The notes beneath the pieces were generated by a model. It did no database searches, was not told the origin of the DNA, and worked only from the letters and a program-made list of their open reading frames with translations. The translations under genes and the position numbers were made by a program. Shown piece by piece: positions 20,070 through 28,265 of a stretch of DNA of 43,233 nt. Each line of letters opens with the position of its first letter. Position 1 is the stretch's first letter. The stretch comes from Ruminococcaceae bacterium UBA737 (lineage in GTDB: Bacteria; Bacillota; Clostridia; Oscillospirales; Acutalibacteraceae), in assembly GCA_002297415.1 (NCBI GenBank), contig DBKZ01000057.1, positions 33,351 to 76,583 on the forward strand, given 5' to 3'.

Positions 20070-20098
20070 TTGATATGGGGACGGTTTGAATGTATAAT
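20070..20098 (+). promoter_or_regulatory. SigA-type promoter for the ychF operon
   Basis: TTGATA (20070-20075), a 17-nt spacer, then TATAAT (20093-20098). Confidence 0.5.
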
Positions 20099-20131
20099 TA
20101 TATTGATTTATTGTATTTTGGAGGCATATAT

Positions 20132-21235
20132 ATGAAACTCGGAATGGTAGGACTTCCGAATGTCGGAAAGTCAACCCTGTTTAATGCTATAACGAATGCC
20201 GGAGCGCAGTCGGCTAACTATCCTTTCTGCACTATTGAGCCTAATGTGGGCGTAGTAAGCGTTCCCGATGAAAGGCTCGAAAAATTAAAGGAAATTTATA
20301 ATCCCGACAAGTTCACGCCGGCTGTAATAGAATTTGTGGATATCGCGGGTCTTGTTAAGGGCGCCTCAAAGGGTGAAGGCTTAGGAAACAAATTTTTAAG
20401 CAATATAAGAGAGGTCGACGCGATAGTTCATGTTGTCCGCTGCTTTGAAAGCACCGATATAATTCATGTCGAAGGCTCTGTTGACCCTGCAAGGGATATT
20501 GAAACCATAAATTTAGAGCTTATCTTTTCGGATATGGAAATCGTTGCAAGAAGGCTTGATAAGGCGCAGAAAGCGGCTAAGGGCGACAAATCGGCTTTAA
20601 AAGAGGTTGATTTCTTAAAAAGGCTCAATGCCCATCTTGAATCGGGACTTCCCGCGCGCTCTATGGAGACTGAGGACGATAATGAATACGAAATTCTTCA
20701 TTCGACCGCTCTTCTTTCCTTAAAGCCCGTAATTTACGCATGCAATATGAGCGAAGAGGACTTCACATCGGGAATTGAGGATAATAAGAACTATCTTACC
20801 GTAAAAGAAATCGCCGAGCGTGAAAAGGCGGAAATTCTTCCGATATGCGCTTCCCTCGAGGCCGAGATTTCAGAGCTTTCGGACGAGGAAAAAATGATGT
20901 TCTTGGAAGAAATAGGACTTGAAAGGTCGGGACTTGACCGAATGATTCAAAAATGCTATCACCTTTTAGGGCTTATTTCCTATCTTACGGCAGGAAAGCC
21001 CGAGGTAAGAGCATGGACCATAACAAAGGGCACAAAAGCGCCTCAGGCGGCAGGAAAAATCCACTCCGATTTTGAGCGCGGATTTATCAGAGCCGAGGTT
21101 ATCGCTTATGATGATTTTATAAACAAGTGCGGCGGAAATATGGTAACCGCAAAGGAAAAGGGCTTAGTCAGAAGCGAGGGCAAGGACTATGTCATGAATG
21201 ACGGAGATATCGTTCTTTTCAGATTTAATGTCTGA
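20132..21235 (+). CDS. ychF: Ribosome-binding ATPase YchF
   Basis: [19 protein letters not shown], with the C-terminal TGS-like end [11 protein letters not shown]. The ATG at 20132 is preceded by GGAGG. The ORF-track start at 20090 lies inside the predicted -10 box. Confidence 0.93.
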
Positions 21236-21262: not shown

Positions 21263-22429
21263 ATGCTGCGAAAAACCTATGCTGAAATAAATGAAGAAAC
21301 CCTTAAAAACAACATAAAAAACATAAGGCTCAATTACAGCGAATATAAATATTATTTCGGCGTTGTAAAGGGCAATGCCTACGGGCACGGCTTTCACACC
21401 GTAAACGCGCTGATTGATGGCGGAATAAACTACCTTGCCGTGGCAACGCCCGACGAGGCTTTAAAAGTAAGAGAATTTAACGGAGAAATACCGATTTTAT
21501 GCTTGGAGCCCGCAGACCTTTCGGCGGTAAATGCTATGCTTGACAATAACATCACCTTAACGGTCGACAGCTTAGATACCTTAGACTCGGTTTTAAAGGC
21601 TGAAAAAAGCAAAAATATAAAGGTTCACCTTAAAATCGACAGCGGAATGAACCGCCTCGGCTTTAAGGACCCTAATGAGCTGAAAGAAGCCTTTAAAGCG
21701 ATTAAGGAAAGCGAAAATATTACGCTTGAAGGAATTTTTACACATCTTGCAACCTCAGGGCTTAACGATTCTTATTATGACCGACAGATAGATAATTTTT
21801 ACGGCATAATAAATATTGCGGGACTAAACTTAAACGAAATCCCCATAATTCACATTGACCGCTCGCTTACTTTGGTGCATCACAAAAAACAGCCGTTTGT
21901 AAACGGAGTGAGACTCGGTATCTGTATGTACGGATTTGCCCAGAGCCTTAACGAGCCGACGGGACTCAGAAAAATCAAGAGAGATTTTTATGTTAAAAAG
22001 TCAGGTATAAGCGATGTTATATTCAAAAACCAATTAGATGTTAAAACCGCTATGTCGCTTTATACCGAGGTTATTGCCGTAAAGCAGGTTAAAAAGGGTG
22101 AATTCGCGGGCTACGGCGCCGAATATGCTTTCGAAGAGAACGGCTATGCCGCGACCTTGGCGATAGGCTATTATGACGGAATACCCGACGGACTTAAAAC
22201 CGTTAACATAAACGGAAAGAATTATAAGATAATCGGCGAGCATTGCATGGATATGATAAGCATTAAGGCGGACGCAAGCGTTAAAGCGGGAGACAAAGCA
22301 GAGATTTTCGGCGATAAGGTTTCGGTAAAATCGGCGGCGGCGCAGAGCGGTATCAGCTCCTACAAGCTTTTATGCTCGGTATCTTCAAGAGTGCCGAGGG
22401 TTTACGGCGAGGAAGAATTATATATTTAA
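21263..22429 (+). CDS. Alanine racemase family (fold type III PLP) racemase, divergent paralog
   Basis: 388 aa. The PLP-lysine motif is VVKGNAYGHG and the catalytic Tyr context is GEFAGYGAEY. It carries roughly 20 extra residues after MYGF compared with the canonical copy at 27141. Confidence 0.8.
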   Translation: MLRKTYAEINEETLKNNIKNIRLNYSEYKYYFGVVKGNAYGHGFHTVNALIDGGINYLAVATPDEALKVREFNGEIPILCLEPADLSAVNAMLDNNITLTVDSLDTLDSVLKAEKSKNIKVHLKIDSGMNRLGFKDPNELKEAFKAIKESENITLEGIFTHLATSGLNDSYYDRQIDNFYGIINIAGLNLNEIPIIHIDRSLTLVHHKKQPFVNGVRLGICMYGFAQSLNEPTGLRKIKRDFYVKKSGISDVIFKNQLDVKTAMSLYTEVIAVKQVKKGEFAGYGAEYAFEENGYAATLAIGYYDGIPDGLKTVNINGKNYKIIGEHCMDMISIKADASVKAGDKAEIFGDKVSVKSAAAQSGISSYKLLCSVSSRVPRVYGEEELYI

Positions 22430-22442
22430 AAAGAGGTCGGCT

Positions 22443-23663
22443 ATGGAATTTGATATACTTATTATCGGCACCGACGCAAACGCCTATTATATGGCGCGGT
22501 GCTATTATGAAAAATACGGCAAAAAGGCCGCTTTGCTCGGTCACTCTCCTCTTCCCTACACTACCTATACCGATATTCTGACAGTTATTTACGATGAAAG
22601 CATTTGGACGGAGGAAGGCTTTTTAAAAGCGCTCAGCGTTTATAAAAAGACTGCTCCCGACAAAAAAATAATTCTTATAAGTTCAAACGAGACCTATGCG
22701 GAATTTATTTCTAAGAACAAAGAAAAGCTAAACTCTTTGGGTTATGTTTTCAATTATCCCGATATCGGGCTTTTACATTCCTTTATGTATAAAGAGTCTT
22801 TTTACAAGACATACGAAAACAGCATTTTAAATCTTCCGAAAACGGAATATTTCGATTGCTCGAAGGACGGTAAACTAAGCGGAGATTTTACCTATCCCGT
22901 TATTTTAAAGCCGAGCAATGTTATCGAGTACAATCATTTATCCTTTGCGGGGAAAAACAAGATTTATAAGATAAATTCAAAAGAGGAGCTTGAAAGCACA
23001 GTTTCGCTTATAAAAAACAGCGGATATTCGGACAGGCTTATTATTCAGGATTTTATCCCGGGCGACGACAGCTGTCTTTTCGACGCTGTAGCCTATTGCT
23101 CATCAGATAAAAAATTAAGGCTTCTTTCCTTTGCGCAAATAGGGCTTCAGGAGCATACGAAAAATATGGTCGGCAACGCGGCTGTTTTGATTAACGGCTA
23201 CAATCAGTTCGGCAACACCGAGCAGATATGCGGGGAATTAAAAAGCTTTCTTGAAGAAGTCGGATACACTGGCTTTGCGGAATTCGATTTGAAGTATGAC
23301 AAGCGCGACGGCAAATTCAAGGTGCTTGAAATAAACGCAAGGCAAGGCAGAAGCAGTTATTATATTGACGCGTTAGGCTACAATCCTATAGAAATTTTAA
23401 AAGAGGATTTAATTGATAACAAGAAAAAAAGCTACGGACTTATAAAGGAAGAAATTCTTTTGTCATTCGTTCCGAAAGGCATTATTAAAAAGTATATTGT
23501 GAACAAGGAATACGCAAAAAAAGCGCTTACACTTTGGAAAAAGGGGCATGTAAACCCCCTGTATTTTAAAGAGGACAAAAATTTCAAGCGAAAGCTTTAT
23601 CTTACTAAAAAAGCTTTAAGATATTTTAAAGAGTATAAAAACGGATACTGGAAGGTTGATTGA
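22443..23663 (+). CDS. ATP-grasp carboxylate--amine ligase, resembling D-aspartate ligase (Aslfm/AslA-type) enzymes
   Basis: 406 aa. The N-terminus ILIIGTDANAYYMARCYYEKYG is the pattern I associate with the COG3919/Asl-type ATP-grasp group. The ATP-grasp core includes VILKP, IIQDFIPG and EINAR. The family call is from memory and is not a search result. Confidence 0.6.
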   Translation: MEFDILIIGTDANAYYMARCYYEKYGKKAALLGHSPLPYTTYTDILTVIYDESIWTEEGFLKALSVYKKTAPDKKIILISSNETYAEFISKNKEKLNSLGYVFNYPDIGLLHSFMYKESFYKTYENSILNLPKTEYFDCSKDGKLSGDFTYPVILKPSNVIEYNHLSFAGKNKIYKINSKEELESTVSLIKNSGYSDRLIIQDFIPGDDSCLFDAVAYCSSDKKLRLLSFAQIGLQEHTKNMVGNAAVLINGYNQFGNTEQICGELKSFLEEVGYTGFAEFDLKYDKRDGKFKVLEINARQGRSSYYIDALGYNPIEILKEDLIDNKKKSYGLIKEEILLSFVPKGIIKKYIVNKEYAKKALTLWKKGHVNPLYFKEDKNFKRKLYLTKKALRYFKEYKNGYWKVD

Positions 23664-25516
23664 ACATGTGCGGTTTTATAGGCTTTACCGATTTAAGACC
23701 TAAGGAAGAAAAGAAAATAATCGCCGAAAATATGGCTGACAGAATAATTCACCGCGGACCCGACAGCGACGGGTATTTTACCGACGATACAGTCGCTCTC
23801 GGCTTCAGGAGACTCTCAATTGTAGACTTAGCGGGCGGAGACCAGCCTATTTTCAACGAGGATAAAACAAAGGTAATAGTTTTTAACGGCGAGATTTATA
23901 ATCATAAGGAATTAAGAAGCGAGCTTGAAAAAAAGGGACATATCTTTTCAAGCAACGCCGACACCGAGGCTATTCTTCACGGCTACGAGGAATACGGCGA
24001 CGAGCTTTTTAACAAGCTTCGCGGAATGTTCGCATTTGTTATTTACGATTTAAAGACAAAAGAGCTTGTAGGTGCGAGAGACCCGTTCGGCATAAAGCCG
24101 TTTTATTATTACAGAAAAAATGACAGCTTTATGTTTGCCTCCGAAATCAAGGCCATGCTTGCGCACCCCGATTTTGAAAAGGAAGTAAACAGAAGCGCTC
24201 TTAAAATGTTCCTTTTATTCCAGTACTCGGTATTTGAAGAAACATTTTTTAAAAATGTCTATAAGCTAAACCCCGGACATTGTTTTAAATATAAAGACGG
24301 GAATTTAGAAATCAAACAGTATTTCGAGGTAAAATATAACAAGGTTGACAAGGGCTACGAGGAATATAAAAAGGAAATCAAGGAAGCTCTTGAAAACTCC
24401 GTAAGCTGTCATAAGCTGTCGGCTGATGTTGAGGTAGGGTCATATCTTTCGGGCGGCGTTGATTCCTCTTATGTGGTAAGCGTCGCAAAACCCGACAAAA
24501 CCTTTACGGTAGGCTTTGATGTAAACGGGTTTGACGAAACAAAAATGGCTCACGATTTTTCGGAAAGCTGCGGAATTCATAATTTCAGCAAATATATTTC
24601 AAAGGACGAATTTTTTGACGCGCTGCCTAAGGTGCAATACCATACCGACGAGCCCGAAGCTAACCTTTCGGCAGTTCCCCTGCTTTTTCTTTCAAAGCTT
24701 GCAAGCGAAAAGGTAAAGGTTGTTTTATCGGGCGAGGGGTCCGACGAAATGTTCGGCGGATATAACGAATATCCCGAAACCTTAGGGGTTAAGGCATATA
24801 TGGCGCTTCCGTCGGGAATTAAAAACACCGCTTCGAAAATCGCGAAAAAGCTCCCCCACTTCCCCGGCAAAAACACAATTATAAAATATGCCAAGCCTTT
24901 TTGCGAGAGATACATGGGTCACGCTCAGATAATGGACGAGGACGAGGCAAACGAAATTTTGTGCGAGGATTTAAGGGACAATTCCACCACAACCGAGGTT
25001 TTAAAGCCTTTTTACGATAAGGTTAAAAATGAGGACGACTGCCTGCAAAAAATGTATATAGATATGCACTTCTGGCTCCCGCAGGACATCCTATTAAAAG
25101 CGGATAAAATGACAATGGCAAATTCCCTTGAGCTGAGAGTCCCCTTCCTTGACAAAGAGGTTTGGCAAGTTGCTTCCGCAATTCCCACAAAGTATTTAAT
25201 AAAGGGCAAAAAGACAAAGGCAATATTCCGCGATGTTGCGGAAGAAAAAATGCCCGAGGAATGGAGCAAGAGAAGAAAATTAGGCTTCCCTGTTCCCTTT
25301 TCAAAATGGGTTAAGGAAGATAAATACTATAACCGTGTAAAAGAAATGTTTGAAAAAGACGCCACATCGCTTTTTTTTGATAAAAACGCGATATTAAAGC
25401 TGTTAGAGGAGCATAAAAACGGCATTAAGAACAACGGCAGAAAAATCTACAACATCTATACTTTCCTTATCTGGTACGATGTTTATTTCGGGGAGAACAG
25501 TAAATGGGTAAGCTGA
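23660..25516 (+). CDS. asnB: Asparagine synthase (glutamine-hydrolysing) family amidotransferase
   Basis: 618 aa with the N-terminal MCGF Ntn-cysteine and the PP-loop SGGVDSS. There is a 4-nt overlap with the upstream ATP-grasp gene. Confidence 0.9.
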   Translation: MNMCGFIGFTDLRPKEEKKIIAENMADRIIHRGPDSDGYFTDDTVALGFRRLSIVDLAGGDQPIFNEDKTKVIVFNGEIYNHKELRSELEKKGHIFSSNADTEAILHGYEEYGDELFNKLRGMFAFVIYDLKTKELVGARDPFGIKPFYYYRKNDSFMFASEIKAMLAHPDFEKEVNRSALKMFLLFQYSVFEETFFKNVYKLNPGHCFKYKDGNLEIKQYFEVKYNKVDKGYEEYKKEIKEALENSVSCHKLSADVEVGSYLSGGVDSSYVVSVAKPDKTFTVGFDVNGFDETKMAHDFSESCGIHNFSKYISKDEFFDALPKVQYHTDEPEANLSAVPLLFLSKLASEKVKVVLSGEGSDEMFGGYNEYPETLGVKAYMALPSGIKNTASKIAKKLPHFPGKNTIIKYAKPFCERYMGHAQIMDEDEANEILCEDLRDNSTTTEVLKPFYDKVKNEDDCLQKMYIDMHFWLPQDILLKADKMTMANSLELRVPFLDKEVWQVASAIPTKYLIKGKKTKAIFRDVAEEKMPEEWSKRRKLGFPVPFSKWVKEDKYYNRVKEMFEKDATSLFFDKNAILKLLEEHKNGIKNNGRKIYNIYTFLIWYDVYFGENSKWVS

Positions 25517-27120
25517 AAAAATCCTCATTTTTAGAGGGCGCTTTTATTGCTACCGTTTGTATTTTCATAAGTAAAATATTAGGTATTATCTATGTTATTC
25601 CCTTTAAAAAGATTATCGGGGACGACGGCGGCGCGCTTTACGGCTACGCTTATAACATTTATAATATTTTTCTTACGATTTCAAGCGTAGGAATACCCTT
25701 TGCCATCTGCAAGCTCGCAAGCGAATATGACGCGCTCGGGCTTACCGAAAAAAAGGTCAGAATGTACAGGCTGGCAACAAGGATAATCGCGGCGTTCTCT
25801 GTAATTTCGTTTTTAATCTGCTTTTTCTTTGCAGGTCCGCTTTCAAAGCTTATTATAGGCGATATCGAGGGCGGAAACACCTTTGAGGATGTTAAGTTCG
25901 TTATCCGCTGTATTGCGTTCACCCTGCTAATCGTGCCGCTTTTAAGCATAAAAAGAGGATATCTGCAAGGGCACAAATTTATAAGCCAGCCTTCGATAAG
26001 TCAGGTTATAGAACAGCTTGTAAGAATAATAGTTATTTTAATAGGCAGTTATCTTTTCGTTTTCGTTTTTAAGCTTCCGATAAGATTTGCCGTAGGAATT
26101 TCTGTTTTTGCGGCGGCCGTAGGCGGATTTATAGCTTATCTTTATTTATCGAAAACCGTCCGCAGGAACAAAGAGGATTTAAGCCTTAACACAAAAGCTC
26201 TTGATTCGTCTAATGACAAAACGATAATAAAGGATATTGTCCTTTGCTCAATTCCGTTTATAATAATAAATCTTGCAAACACGCTGTATACAAGCACCGA
26301 TATGATTTTGGTGCTTCACACACTTCCCCGCCTCGGCTTTACAGGCAAGGAAACGGAATTTATAAGCAGTGTTTTCACAACATGGGGAACCAAATTCAAC
26401 GCTATTATAACAGCGGTTTCAACAGGTCTTATTGTAAGCCTTATTCCGAATATAGTTCACGATTACACCTGTAAGGATTTTGAGCTTGTAAACACAAATT
26501 TCAATAAGTGCCTTAAAATAATTCTTCTGATAATCGCCCCGCTTTCGCTTTTTATAAGTCTTGAAGCGGACAACTTCTGGACTGTTTTTTACGGGCAGAA
26601 TAAAACCGGCTCTTCGATAATAAAATTTACAATAATAGTAACTATTTTCGACTGCCTTTATATGGTGCTTAATTCCCTGCTCCAGAGCCTTAACAAAAAG
26701 CATATAATTTACAGGAGCGTTATAACGGGACTTGTTATCAACCTTATTTTAGATGTTCCTTTTATGTATCTGTTCAAATTCTTAGGGCTTAAAGCTTTTT
26801 ACGGCGCTATAACCGCAACTCTTGCAGGTTTCCTTGTTTCTAATACCATGAGTCTGCTTTATCTTAAAAAGAACATGGAAATAAACTTTACGGAAACCTT
26901 AAAGGCAATGCCCAGAGCACTGCTTTCTTACGCCGTTCTTATTCTGCTTTGTACCGTTTTCAACAGGTTTGCAATAAGCGGAGGTTCAAGAATAAAGAGT
27001 ATGCTTTTTATAGTTGTTTCGGGAATTATCATAGGAGGAATTTATATCCTTATAAATTTAAAACAGCTTAAAACAATTCTTCCCGAAAAGCTTTTAAGAA
27101 AGCTTAAATTGATAAAATAA
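25504..27120 (+). CDS. MOP-superfamily flippase (MurJ/SpoVB/YtgP-like polysaccharide or lipid II flippase)
   Basis: 538 aa, hydrophobic throughout with about 14 predicted TM segments. The N-terminus, SFLEGAFIATVCIFISKILGIIYVIPF, is typical of the SpoVB/YtgP group. It overlaps the asnB end by 13 nt. Confidence 0.75.
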   Translation: MGKLKKSSFLEGAFIATVCIFISKILGIIYVIPFKKIIGDDGGALYGYAYNIYNIFLTISSVGIPFAICKLASEYDALGLTEKKVRMYRLATRIIAAFSVISFLICFFFAGPLSKLIIGDIEGGNTFEDVKFVIRCIAFTLLIVPLLSIKRGYLQGHKFISQPSISQVIEQLVRIIVILIGSYLFVFVFKLPIRFAVGISVFAAAVGGFIAYLYLSKTVRRNKEDLSLNTKALDSSNDKTIIKDIVLCSIPFIIINLANTLYTSTDMILVLHTLPRLGFTGKETEFISSVFTTWGTKFNAIITAVSTGLIVSLIPNIVHDYTCKDFELVNTNFNKCLKIILLIIAPLSLFISLEADNFWTVFYGQNKTGSSIIKFTIIVTIFDCLYMVLNSLLQSLNKKHIIYRSVITGLVINLILDVPFMYLFKFLGLKAFYGAITATLAGFLVSNTMSLLYLKKNMEINFTETLKAMPRALLSYAVLILLCTVFNRFAISGGSRIKSMLFIVVSGIIIGGIYILINLKQLKTILPEKLLRKLKLIK

Positions 27121-27140
27121 TCGAAAGAGGGTAAATTCAA

Positions 27141-28265
27141 ATGGATTTTTTAAGGCGGACTTGGGCTGAAATAGACCTGAATGCTCTTAAAAACAATTTT
27201 GATATTATCAGAAAAAAAGCAGGAGATACAAAAATCGCGGCGGTTGTCAAGGCGGACGCTTACGGCCACGGTGCAAAAATAATCGCACCTGTGCTTGAGA
27301 AACTTGGCGCTGACGCATTCGCGGTTTCAAACATAGAAGAGGCTTTAGAGCTTAGAAGCTGCAAAATTACAAAGCCTATTCTTATTTTAGGCTACACTCC
27401 TACCGACCACTGCGACGCGCTCATTGAAAACGATATTTCTCAGTGCGTTTATTCGCTTGATTATGCAAAAGAGCTTTCGAAAGCCGCCCGCGCCTTAGGA
27501 AAGACCCTTAAAATTCATTTAAAGCTGGATTCGGGAATGGGCAGAATAGGATTTGATTGCAGAAGCGACTCTCTTTCGGGGCTAAATGACGCTTATGCTG
27601 CCGCAACTCTACCTTGCTTTGACTGCGAGGGAATTTTCACGCATTTTGCGGTTTCGGACCGCACTCCCGACTCTGAGGACGGATTTACAGACGAGCAATA
27701 TAACAGATTTATAAAAGCGGTGGATATTCTTAAATCCAAGGGGCTTACGCCTGAAGTTATTCATTGCTCGAACTCTGCGGCTATATGCAGGGACTCTGAA
27801 AAAAAACTTGATATGGTAAGACCGGGGATTATTCTTTACGGACTTTCTCCCGAGCCGAAGCTTAAAGATATCGGAGATTTTATACCTGTTATGACTTTAA
27901 AATCCACCGTTTCGATGGTTAAGGAAATAGGAGCGGGAGAAACCGTCAGCTACGGAAGGACATTTACGGCAGACAAAAAAATGCGCCTTGCCACGGTTGC
28001 GATAGGCTATGCCGACGGATACCCGAGACAGCTTTCAAACAAAGGGAGCGTTCTTATTAACGGAAAAAGAGCAAAAATTACGGGAAGAATCTGCATGGAC
28101 CAGATGTTAGTCGATGTTTCGGACATAGAAGATGTACATATAGGAACAGAGGTTATTCTTTTCGGAAAGGAGCTTTCGGTAAACGAATTAGCCGAGCTTG
28201 TCGGAACGATAAATTATGAAATTCTCTGCGGAATTTCAAAAAGGGTTATAAGGACGGTTGTTTAA
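27141..28265 (+). CDS. alr: Alanine racemase (canonical)
   Basis: 374 aa with RRTWAEIDLNAL, the PLP-lysine motif VVKADAYGHG and the catalytic Tyr motif VSYGRTF. Confidence 0.92.
   Translation: MDFLRRTWAEIDLNALKNNFDIIRKKAGDTKIAAVVKADAYGHGAKIIAPVLEKLGADAFAVSNIEEALELRSCKITKPILILGYTPTDHCDALIENDISQCVYSLDYAKELSKAARALGKTLKIHLKLDSGMGRIGFDCRSDSLSGLNDAYAAATLPCFDCEGIFTHFAVSDRTPDSEDGFTDEQYNRFIKAVDILKSKGLTPEVIHCSNSAAICRDSEKKLDMVRPGIILYGLSPEPKLKDIGDFIPVMTLKSTVSMVKEIGAGETVSYGRTFTADKKMRLATVAIGYADGYPRQLSNKGSVLINGKRAKITGRICMDQMLVDVSDIEDVHIGTEVILFGKELSVNELAELVGTINYEILCGISKRVIRTVV

What the first reader, a model, noticed from the sequence alone, without database searches (positions are those of the whole stretch)
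21263..28265. Racemase / ATP-grasp ligase / AsnB amidotransferase / MOP flippase / alanine racemase: a self-contained candidate peptidoglycan side-chain module
Five tightly packed or overlapping plus-strand genes make up the module. Their gaps are 13, -4, -13 and 20 nt.

Known biology supports the reading. In Enterococcus faecium and Lactococcus lactis, an ATP-grasp D-aspartate ligase (Aslfm/AslA) is encoded next to a racemase. It adds D-Asp to the stem-peptide L-Lys. An AsnB-family enzyme (AsnH) then amidates it to D-iso-Asn. AsnB paralogs also amidate mDAP in Lactobacillus plantarum and Clostridioides difficile.

Here all three activities are fused into one operon together with a MurJ/SpoVB-type flippase and the housekeeping alr. 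The partner racemase is an Alr-fold PLP enzyme rather than an Asp/Glu-type racemase. That would imply a different D-amino-acid donor or an unreported route to it.

The downstream genes (hydrolase, LCP-like protein, transglutaminase-like lipoprotein) are also envelope-related.
Basis: partly seen in the sequence, partly recalled or inferred. Interest (0 to 1): 0.6.

Follow-up and report, generated by a model that had tools for sequence, protein, structure and literature searches.

The report
Portable cell-wall side-branch gene cassette
An uncultured gut Clostridia bacterium carries a four-gene cassette, missing from most close relatives, that probably adds an extra D-amino acid (most likely D-alanine) and an amide to its diaminopimelate-type cell-wall peptide; no such wall chemistry has been measured.

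Summary
The five genes are real and lie at the stated coordinates. One correction: asnB starts at ATG 23666.

The unit is four genes, not five: racemase, ATP-grasp ligase, AsnB and MOP flippase. In four same-genus genomes without the ligase, ychF abuts alr, or sits one small gene away. So alr and the downstream genes are resident backbone.

The ligase is a full-length relative (31-37% identity) of proteins that JGI names D-aspartate ligase. That sister clade sits beside Asp/Glu racemases and MurE genes lacking the DNPR motif. The window clade is separate, with 32 differently fixed positions. It is almost always paired with an Alr-type racemase (78 of 80 loci) and usually with AsnB. It recurs inside dcw clusters or beside murE. 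Every linked MurE I read carries DNPR, the mDAP type.

The racemase keeps the alanine-specificity tyrosine pair. It is the only Alr-fold gene in most carrier genomes sampled, so the donor is probably D-Ala.

The peptidoglycan reading is supported; donor and acceptor are inferred. All carriers are uncultured. This scan had already found the module on other DNA. I rate it a new variant of the Asl/AsnH pathway, of moderate interest.

The parts
21263..22429 (+). Cassette gene 1: Alr-clade PLP racemase (388 aa) with a ~22-residue basic insertion after the YGF motif. Predicted alanine racemase that supplies the ligase.
   Evidence: Pfam Ala_racemase_N/C; TIGR00492 264.6 bits against a cut-off of 168. 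33% identical to the resident alr. The equivalents of K39, Y43, K129, R136-L137, H166, S204, R219, Y265', M312' and D313' are kept in 75-78 of 78 family members, and Tyr354 in 71 of 78. Y284' is replaced by V/I/M. It is the only full-length Alr-fold gene in most carrier genomes sampled.
22443..23663 (+). Cassette gene 2: Asl-like ATP-grasp carboxylate-amine ligase (406 aa), the core of the module.
   Evidence: AF2 model pLDDT 90.1. Foldseek gives ATP-grasp folds, with L-amino-acid ligase 3vot and PylC 4ffl near the top. It aligns end to end at 31-37% identity with proteins that JGI names D-aspartate ligase. 54 positions are invariant in both clades and 32 are fixed differently. It forms its own clade. 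More than 2000 homologues were found, all named ones from MAGs.
23666..25516 (+). Cassette gene 3: AsnB-type glutamine amidotransferase (616 aa from the corrected ATG start). Predicted to amidate a free carboxyl of the modified stem peptide.
   Evidence: GATase_6/7 plus Asn_synthase; TIGR01536 526 bits. It follows the ligase in about 67 of 80 loci. The same genome holds a second AsnB paralogue, 50% identical, on contig C16.
25504..27120 (+). Cassette gene 4: MOP-superfamily flippase of the SpoVB/YtgP type (538 aa). Predicted to flip the modified lipid II.
   Evidence: Polysacc_synt 88 bits. Full-length match to TIGR02900 SpoVB at 150 bits, below the 372-bit cut-off. No match to Pfam MurJ PF03023. 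Present in the cassette in about 22 of 80 loci, mostly Clostridia. Unlinked homologues 43-45% identical occur in two small Bacilli-type MAGs. Other MOP paralogues exist in this genome.
27141..28265 (+). Resident housekeeping alr (374 aa). It is the right-hand flank of the insertion site and not part of the cassette.
   Evidence: TIGR00492 401 bits. Orthologues 60-67% identical follow ychF in cassette-free congeners L021-L024, directly in three and after one small ORF in L022.
20090..21235 (+). ychF (redox-regulated ATPase). It is the left-hand flank of the insertion site and the probable source of the operon's promoter.
   Evidence: TIGR00092 500 bits. The best promoter-like site of the region, TTGATA-17-TATAAT, lies at 20070-20098. 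No convincing terminator lies between ychF and alr.

Best explanation
Genes 21263-27120 form a four-gene accessory cassette. It sits between the core genes ychF and alr and tailors the cytoplasmic peptidoglycan precursor of an mDAP-type cell wall.

The proposed steps are all inferred from homology and gene context; none has been shown biochemically.
1. The cassette's own Alr-clade racemase makes a D-amino acid, most likely D-alanine.
2. The Asl-like ATP-grasp ligase activates that amino acid's carboxyl as an acyl phosphate. It joins it to the free (D-centre) amino group of meso-diaminopimelate in the stem peptide. This is what the D-aspartate ligase does with D-Asp on L-Lys.
3. The AsnB-type amidotransferase amidates the neighbouring free carboxyl, most likely the mDAP epsilon-carboxyl, as AsnB1, LtsA and B. 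subtilis AsnB do.
4. The SpoVB/YtgP-like MOP protein flips the branched, amidated lipid II.

My confidence differs by level:
- It is a peptidoglycan stem-peptide tailoring module: about 0.8.
- The donor is D-Ala: about 0.45.
- The attachment point is the mDAP amino group: about 0.4.
For: Family:
- The ligase aligns over its full length (31-37% identity) with a clade that JGI names D-aspartate ligase. That clade sits next to Asp/Glu racemases and MurE.
- Natural fusions in the wider family join the ligase to Asp/Glu racemase (3 representatives) and to FemAB domains (2).

Context:
- The window clade lies inside dcw clusters (mraZ-rsmH-x-[ligase, racemase]-PBP-murE-mraY-ftsW-murG).
- It lies directly after murE in L061, L065 and L071.
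- Its nearest sister clades lie beside FemAB, PcsB/FtsEX, an S11 carboxypeptidase, VanY and murE.

Acceptor:
- The genome's only full-scoring MurE has DNPR, and DapF is present.
- All 10 MurE genes linked to the module also have DNPR.
- The MurE genes beside the Asl-type sister clade lack it.
- DNPR binds the free carboxyl of mDAP (PMC3829189).

Donor:
- The racemase-ligase pair is adjacent in 78 of 80 loci.
- The racemase keeps the Tyr265'/Tyr354 pair (78/78 and 71/78). That pair defines strict alanine specificity and is replaced in the Ser, Lys and broad-spectrum racemases (PMC4542195, PMC3485190).
- The racemase is the only Alr-fold hit in 9 of 10 carrier genomes, and a second, canonical-scoring alr was seen in only about 11 of 50 more. 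Ddl was present in 5 of 5 tested.

Amidation: AsnB paralogues amidate mDAP or the D-Asp bridge in Firmicutes (PMC4155827, PMC8554201).

Cassette nature: see the empty sites and the flank tree.
Against: - No member of this clade, and no carrier organism, has been cultured or assayed. All named hits are MAGs.
- I know of no described chemotype with D-Ala on the mDAP side chain. This rests on my own recollection of Schleifer-Kandler types, not on a search.
- If the racemase is just an alanine racemase, it is unclear why this genome keeps it next to a resident alr.
- The racemase's changed entryway (Y284' to V/I/M, a 22-residue insertion) could mean a wider or different substrate range.
- I had no sequence of the experimentally characterised Aslfm or AslA. 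The link to Asl therefore rests on JGI's name and on gene context.
- The MOP protein scores below the SpoVB cut-off and misses Pfam MurJ.
- Four representatives of the wider ATP-grasp family are fused to DegT-like sugar aminotransferase domains, so the superfamily is not exclusively peptidoglycan-linked.
Confidence: 0.6

Rival explanations
1. It is the same peptidoglycan module, but the racemase is only the donor lineage's ordinary alanine racemase, carried along for D-Ala-D-Ala supply. The ligase would then use a different donor made elsewhere: D-Glu from MurI, D-Asp, glycine or an L-amino acid. That would give, for example, an mDAP-D-Glu (A4-gamma-like) bridge, which AsnB then amidates to D-isoGln.
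For: - The racemase is the sole Alr-fold gene in most carriers sampled, so it must serve housekeeping D-Ala supply there anyway.
- An acidic donor would give AsnB a free alpha-carboxyl to amidate, exactly as in the Asl/AsnH paradigm (PMC4155827).
- Some loci carry two AsnB genes (L061, L065, L071, L093, L102). That would fit two carboxyls to amidate.
Against: - The racemase-ligase adjacency holds in 78 of 80 loci. It holds even where the pair was dropped into a dcw cluster, or into genomes that already have alr. This argues for a functional tie.
- Positions fixed in the Asl-type clade are replaced by neutral or acidic residues in the window clade (H232Q, H246A, N280E, V214D). That does not suggest an acidic donor.
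Confidence: 0.2
2. The polarity of the reaction is reversed. The ligase activates a free carboxyl of the stem peptide (the mDAP epsilon-COOH or the D-Glu alpha-COOH) and attaches the amino group of D-Ala. AsnB then amidates the new C-terminus. The result is a D-alanine-amide substituent rather than a cross-bridge.
For: - All three enzymes get a role on one substituent: racemase, then ligase, then amidation of the added residue's carboxyl.
- D-Glu alpha-carboxyl substituents such as glycine amide and D-alanine amide are listed in the classical chemotype literature. This is my recollection of Schleifer and Kandler 1972 and was not checked here.
- No MurT/GatD signature (PF08353) was found in this genome, which is 79% complete.
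Against: - The characterised relatives (Asl) activate the free amino acid, not the nucleotide precursor (PMC4155827).
- Swapping which substrate carries the carboxyl is a larger change than a change of donor.
- The module is also found without a linked AsnB, in the dcw-embedded pairs.
Confidence: 0.12
3. The cassette is not a peptidoglycan module. It would make and export a small D-amino-acid-containing peptide amide, or decorate another envelope polymer, with the MOP protein acting as exporter. Dapdiamide-type pathways are a comparison: they combine an ATP-grasp ligase, an AsnB-like amidotransferase and an efflux protein.
For: - The top fold matches include L-amino-acid ligases (3vot, RizA 4wd3).
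- Four representatives of the wider family are fused to DegT-like sugar aminotransferase domains.
- The MOP protein is below every curated flippase cut-off.
Against: - There are no glycosyltransferase, NRPS or immunity genes in or near the cassette.
- The pair repeatedly and independently sits in dcw clusters and beside murE, FemAB and PBPs.
- The MOP gene is absent from most loci, so export is not intrinsic to the module.
Confidence: 0.06

Closest known systems
RacD/Racfm - AslA/Aslfm - AsnH pathway of Lactococcus lactis and Enterococcus faecium (D-Asp / D-isoAsn cross-bridge on L-Lys; D-aspartate ligase EC 6.3.1.12)
   Same: - Same logic: a racemase encoded next to an ATP-grasp ligase adds a D-amino acid to the third stem residue of the cytoplasmic precursor, and an AsnB-family enzyme amidates it afterwards (PMC4155827).
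- The ligases are homologous over their whole length, with 54 positions invariant in both clades.
   Different: - The racemase is a PLP Alr-fold enzyme with an alanine-type active site, not an Asp/Glu-type racemase.
- The linked and genomic MurE genes are DNPR (mDAP) type, not Lys type.
- The ligase forms a separate clade at only 31-37% identity, with 32 positions fixed differently.
- AsnB is in the same operon, and a flippase is added in the Clostridia version.
mDAP-amidating AsnB paralogues (AsnB1 of L. plantarum, AsnB of B. subtilis, L. monocytogenes and C. difficile, LtsA of C. glutamicum)
   Same: - A class II glutamine amidotransferase plus Asn-synthase domain protein in an mDAP-type Gram-positive organism.
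- A paralogue of a second AsnB in the same genome.
- Genetically linked to murE in some loci, as asnB1 is (PMC4155827, PMC8554201).
   Different: - Here it is coupled to a branch-adding ligase, and its target carboxyl is unknown.
- The published sequence marks were not informative, because the cassette copy and the second paralogue share the same DILLKADK motif.
Alanine racemase (Alr, TIGR00492) versus VanT, Lyr and Bsr specialised Alr-fold racemases
   Same: The cassette racemase scores above the alr equivalog cut-off. It keeps the PLP lysine, the catalytic Tyr265' and the specificity residue Tyr354 (PMC4542195, PMC3485190).
   Different: It carries a conserved ~22-residue basic insertion at the domain junction. 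It has Y284' replaced by V/I/M and N353 by A/S. It is tied to the ligase gene in 78 of 80 loci.
SpoVB / YtgP(MurJ) lipid II flippases of Firmicutes (MOP superfamily)
   Same: Same Pfam family (Polysacc_synt) and a full-length alignment to the SpoVB model.
   Different: It scores 150 bits against a cut-off of 372. It has no Pfam MurJ match. It is an extra paralogue travelling with a precursor-modifying operon.

Membership tests
D-aspartate ligase (Asl) family, EC 6.3.1.12 | ATP-grasp fold with the ATP/Mg2+ motifs | tested here: met
   AF2 pLDDT 90.1. Foldseek finds 456 PDB matches at E<=0.001, and the 50 listed are all ATP-grasp enzymes. K156, E296 and N298, and the RQGR motif, are invariant in both clades.
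D-aspartate ligase (Asl) family, EC 6.3.1.12 | Sequence membership in the clade of the characterised or annotated D-aspartate ligases | tested here: not met
   Only 31-37% identity to the clade that JGI names D-aspartate ligase. It forms a separate clade in the family tree, with 32 positions fixed differently at >=95%. JGI gives the window-clade members no name.
D-aspartate ligase (Asl) family, EC 6.3.1.12 | Adjacent Asp/Glu-type aspartate racemase (racD/Racfm) | tested here: not met
   The partner is Ala_racemase_N/C in the window and in 78 of 80 related loci. The sister clade does have PF01177 neighbours or fusions.
D-aspartate ligase (Asl) family, EC 6.3.1.12 | Acceptor is an L-Lys (or Orn) stem peptide | tested here: not met
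   The genomic MurE and all 10 linked MurE genes carry DNPR. DapF is present. MurE genes beside the sister clade lack DNPR.
D-aspartate ligase (Asl) family, EC 6.3.1.12 | D-Asp-dependent ATPase and ligation activity on UDP-MurNAc-pentapeptide | not testable with these tools
   This needs an enzyme assay.
Alanine racemase (Alr) | Scores above the curated alr equivalog cut-off; PLP Lys and catalytic Tyr present | tested here: met
   TIGR00492 264.6 bits against 168. K39 and Y265' are present in 78 of 78.
Alanine racemase (Alr) | Inner-layer tyrosine pair (Tyr265'/Tyr354) that restricts the pocket to alanine | tested here: met
   Tyr354 equivalent in 71 of 78 family members, including the window's copy. 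The role of this residue is taken from PMC4542195 and PMC3485190.
Alanine racemase (Alr) | Serves as the cell's D-Ala source | tested here: inconclusive
   It is the only PF01168 hit in 9 of 10 carrier genomes, and a second, canonical-scoring alr was seen in only about 11 of 50 more. Ddl was present in 5 of 5 tested. The completeness of these MAGs was not given, and activity was not measured.
Peptidoglycan-amidating AsnB paralogues (AsnH / AsnB1 / LtsA) | N-terminal Cys nucleophile, GATase class II domain and Asn_synthase domain | tested here: met
   (MCGF start at 23666).
Peptidoglycan-amidating AsnB paralogues (AsnH / AsnB1 / LtsA) | Lacks the Asp-binding D/R residues and has the extra loop of mDAP-amidating enzymes (PMC8554201) | tested here: inconclusive
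   Lys aligns with E. coli R387. The second paralogue on C16 has the same DILLKADK motif, so the mark does not separate the two. The position of the loop is not given in the text that is held.
MurJ/SpoVB-type lipid II flippase | Matches a curated flippase model above its cut-off | tested here: not met
   TIGR02900 150 bits against a cut-off of 372. No PF03023 match at this locus. Only Polysacc_synt (88 bits) and a weak MatE hit.

The most novel reading that the evidence does not exclude
A large group of uncultured gut Firmicutes builds a peptidoglycan chemotype that has not been described. The group includes Acutalibacteraceae, other Clostridia, and small-genome Bacilli/'Tenericutes'-labelled MAGs. 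In this chemotype an mDAP stem would carry a D-alanine (or other small D-amino acid) branch on the D-centre amine, with the neighbouring carboxyl amidated. The branch would be made by a new ligase clade with its own alanine-racemase variant. In the window's genus the trait is a presence/absence polymorphism at one chromosomal site.
Probability: 0.3. Interest if true: 0.7.

Novelty: new variant of a known kind. Interest (0 to 1): 0.5.

Why it matters
Peptidoglycan chemotypes are known almost only from cultured bacteria. This module predicts a branched, amidated mDAP wall in many uncultured gut lineages.

Such a change would alter several things. It would change what host sensors of mDAP-type muropeptides see. 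It would also change sensitivity to lysozyme, endopeptidases and some wall-active antibiotics, and which transpeptidases can cross-link the wall.

The window adds two things to earlier sightings:
- A natural experiment. Sister species carry or lack the cassette at the same site between ychF and alr.
- A concrete, cheap prediction. The donor is D-Ala, so muropeptides should gain +71 Da on mDAP and lose 1 Da from amidation.

The ligase clade is also currently annotated only as 'carboxylate--amine ligase'.

Tried and rejected
1. Search for a cultured carrier with a known wall type. None turned up: the best 80 of 197 GTDB loci and every named hit in three protein searches are MAGs. The one cultured hit (Bacilliculturomica massiliensis) belongs to the Asl-type sister clade.

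2. Direct comparison with the experimentally studied Aslfm and AslA. No tool gave me their sequences, and I did not type them from memory. The link rests on JGI names and gene context.

3. PDB sequence search with the ligase found nothing. The fold search gave only generic ATP-grasp enzymes at TM 0.5-0.6, so no substrate could be inferred.

4. The AsnB specificity marks from PMC8554201 did not discriminate.

5. Recent horizontal transfer judged by composition. The cassette's GC (0.37-0.42) matches its flanks, and I saw no direct repeats at the borders. The flank tree needs at least two gains or losses but cannot tell which.

6. A VanT-like or Ddl-like resistance reading was rejected. The racemase keeps Tyr354, and the ligase is not in the Ddl family.

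7. A polysaccharide-decoration reading was rejected. There are no glycosyltransferases nearby, and the neighbours are dnaE, whiA, rapZ, murB, glucokinase, hprK, ychF, alr and glnA-III.

8. Literature searches found no paper on this clade.

Full report
**Observation.** Their domains are:
- an Alr-fold racemase (TIGR00492 264.6 bits, above its cut-off);
- a 406-aa protein with no Pfam hit and only a weak CPSase-like ATP-grasp hit;
- an AsnB-type glutamine amidotransferase;
- a MOP-superfamily protein (Polysacc_synt, with a full-length but sub-threshold match to SpoVB);
- a canonical alr (401 bits).

An AlphaFold2 model of the 406-aa protein (pLDDT 90.1) matches ATP-grasp enzymes only. An L-amino-acid ligase and PylC are near the top, but at TM 0.5-0.6.

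One correction concerns asnB. The frame reads MNMCGF from the TTG at 23660, and these enzymes need Cys directly after the initiator Met. The true start is therefore ATG 23666, 2 nt after the ligase stop and 10 nt after GGAAGG.

**The unit is four genes, and it is a cassette.** The window is contig C11 of a 1.5-Mb, 79%-complete MAG. Record titles of near-identical loci place it among Acutalibacteraceae and 'uncultured Eubacteriales'.
- Within its genus, only 4 of 25 genomes sampled have the ligase.
- In four high-quality congeners without it, ychF is followed by alr. The two are directly adjacent (12-70 nt) in three, and separated by one small CmpB-like ORF in L022. A fifth congener has ychF without alr nearby.
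- In congeners that have the ligase, the order ychF-racemase-ligase-asnB-MOP-alr is kept.
- In other lineages the same four genes occur without alr (L012; L037-L042).

So alr is resident backbone. So is the downstream alpha/beta hydrolase, which is also found after alr in two cassette-free genomes (L023, L024).

A tree of the flanking genes ychF and alr puts cassette-bearing genomes in two clades, interleaved with cassette-free ones. That needs at least two gains or losses at one site. Base composition gives no sign of recent import. The surrounding genes are core housekeeping: dnaE, whiA, rapZ, murB, glucokinase, hprK, then glnA-III, an amidase, sigA and dnaG.

**What the ligase is related to.**
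- Its close family is large, with more than 2000 hits. Members are 62-76% identical across many Clostridia MAGs, and NCBI names them only 'carboxylate--amine ligase'.
- At 31-37% identity, over the whole length, it aligns with a second clade.
- JGI names that second clade D-aspartate ligase. There the gene is followed by an Asp/Glu racemase and a MurE, sometimes fused to an aspartokinase-like domain.
- This is the published racD-aslA arrangement of L. lactis and E. faecium (PMC4155827).
- In the wider family (239 clusters at E<1e-30) there are natural fusions to Asp/Glu racemase (3 representatives), to FemAB domains (2) and to DegT-like domains (4).
- The two clades share 54 invariant positions but differ at 32 positions fixed at >=95% in each. 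They are separate in the tree.
- In the window's family, 42 of 301 genomes have the Asl-type gene and only 4 have the window type.

**Context of the window clade elsewhere.** All 80 GTDB loci kept are MAGs: Acutalibacteraceae, other Clostridia, and many small genomes labelled Bacilli or Tenericutes.
- The racemase-ligase pair is adjacent in 78 loci.
- AsnB follows in about 67. Some loci have two AsnB genes.
- The MOP gene follows in about 22.
- In about ten loci the pair sits inside the dcw cluster, between rsmH/ftsL and PBP-murE-mraY-ftsW-murG.
- In three loci it directly follows murE.
- The nearest sister clades (42-48% identity) are also Alr-paired. They lie beside FemAB, PcsB/FtsEX, CtpA, an S11 carboxypeptidase, VanY and murE.

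These repeated and independent associations are the main evidence for a peptidoglycan role.

**Acceptor.** The genome's MurE reads VTSDNPRTEDP, and DapF is present. All ten module-linked MurE genes also read DNPR. The three MurE genes beside Asl-type ligases read TEEDPGEE or TEEDAGEE instead. DNPR is the motif that binds the free carboxyl of mDAP (PMC3829189). The module therefore works on an mDAP stem, unlike the Lys-based Asl paradigm.

**Donor.** The cassette racemase is 33% identical to the resident alr. Its family carries a conserved ~22-residue basic insertion. Across 78 family members the active-site residues are conserved as follows:
- Kept in 75-78 of 78: the PLP lysine, Tyr43, the carbamylated-lysine position, Arg136-Leu137, His166, Ser204, Arg219, Tyr265', Met312' and Asp313'.
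- Tyr354 is kept in 71 of 78.
- Tyr284' is always V, I or M.

Tyr354 together with Tyr265' is the published determinant of strict alanine specificity. It is Asn in VanT serine racemases, Thr or Ala in lysine and broad-specificity racemases, and Pro in BsrV (PMC4542195, PMC3485190).

There is independent evidence too. In 9 of 10 carrier genomes the module's racemase is the only Ala_racemase_N match. In a further 50, 34 have a single match, and about 39 show no second canonical-scoring alr. I confirmed by coordinates that the single hit is the module's gene in all 11 cases I checked. Ddl was present in 5 of 5 genomes tested.

The simplest reading is that this racemase is an alanine racemase, so the ligase's partner amino acid would be D-Ala. 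This is an inference. The changed entryway and the retention of the gene beside a resident alr leave room for a wider substrate range.

**Mechanism proposed.**
1. The racemase makes D-Ala.
2. The ligase forms D-alanyl phosphate, the chemistry used by Ddl, and transfers it to the D-centre amine of mDAP in the nucleotide or lipid precursor.
3. AsnB amidates the adjacent mDAP carboxyl, as AsnB1, LtsA and B. subtilis AsnB do (PMC4155827, PMC8554201).
4. The MOP protein flips the modified lipid II.

Amidation would make the mDAP end resemble the Lys side chain that Asl enzymes use. That could explain why AsnB is operon-linked here but not in the Lys systems; this too is inference. The genome has a second AsnB paralogue (50% identity, contig C16) and other MOP paralogues, so the cassette copies are extras. 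No MurT/GatD signature was found (the genome is 79% complete).

**Rivals.**
- The racemase is merely the donor lineage's housekeeping alr, and the ligase uses D-Glu, D-Asp or Gly (0.2).
- The ligase activates a stem carboxyl and adds D-Ala, which AsnB then amidates (0.12).
- The product is not peptidoglycan (0.06).

Each is separable by one in-vitro assay and one muropeptide mass measurement.

**Comparison and novelty.** The system works like the RacD/Asl/AsnH pathway but fails three of that family's defining features: clade membership, the Asp/Glu racemase partner, and the Lys acceptor. I therefore file it as a new variant of a known kind, not as a member. No paper on this clade turned up.

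This scan had already met the same module on other DNA. Earlier follow-ups reached the same general reading with the donor left open. New here are the empty-site evidence for a four-gene cassette, the uniform DNPR linkage, and the evidence that the racemase is an alanine racemase.

Noticed in passing
window 20070-20132: The ychF ORF as listed starts at 20090, but orthologues align only from residue 14-15. The best promoter-like site (TTGATA-17-TATAAT, 20070-20098) overlaps that ATG. The real start is probably the Met near 20132.
   Followed up: partly
G000 contig C16:22884-24735 (outside the window): The second AsnB paralogue (50% identity) aligns in two pieces, 22884-24500 and 24508-24735, which lie in different frames. 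This is either a frameshift near the C-terminus or an assembly error.
   Followed up: no
proteins P0297, P0299, P0308, P0372, P0317 (family representatives): Some relatives of the ligase, 28-32% identical to it, are fused to an N-terminal DegT/DnrJ-like PLP aminotransferase domain and/or to FemAB domains, giving proteins of 743-1235 aa. Their function is unknown.
   Followed up: no
L022:11420-11890 and L031:4437-4835: A small ~132-aa gene (Pfam ABC_trans_CmpB) lies between ychF and the cassette in one clade. In the cassette-free sister genome it lies between ychF and alr. It marks the same insertion point.
   Followed up: partly
L115:4817-11894: A Lachnospiraceae MAG has alr-ligase-asnB-Aminotran_3-murE in one operon, after ftsE/ftsX, a PcsB-like M23 peptidase and an S41 protease. 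It resembles the diaminobutyrate variant noted earlier by the scan.
   Followed up: no
G397:C49:852-1502: One carrier genome has an Alr domain inside a 720-aa open frame, a VanT-like size.
   Followed up: no
It diverges fast: 85% identity in the closest genome, and 25-37% in other congeners.
   Followed up: partly
L015:5209-7578 and L111:8093-10498: The MurE genes next to Asl-type ligases are fused to a C-terminal amino-acid kinase (aspartokinase-like) domain and lack DNPR.
   Followed up: partly
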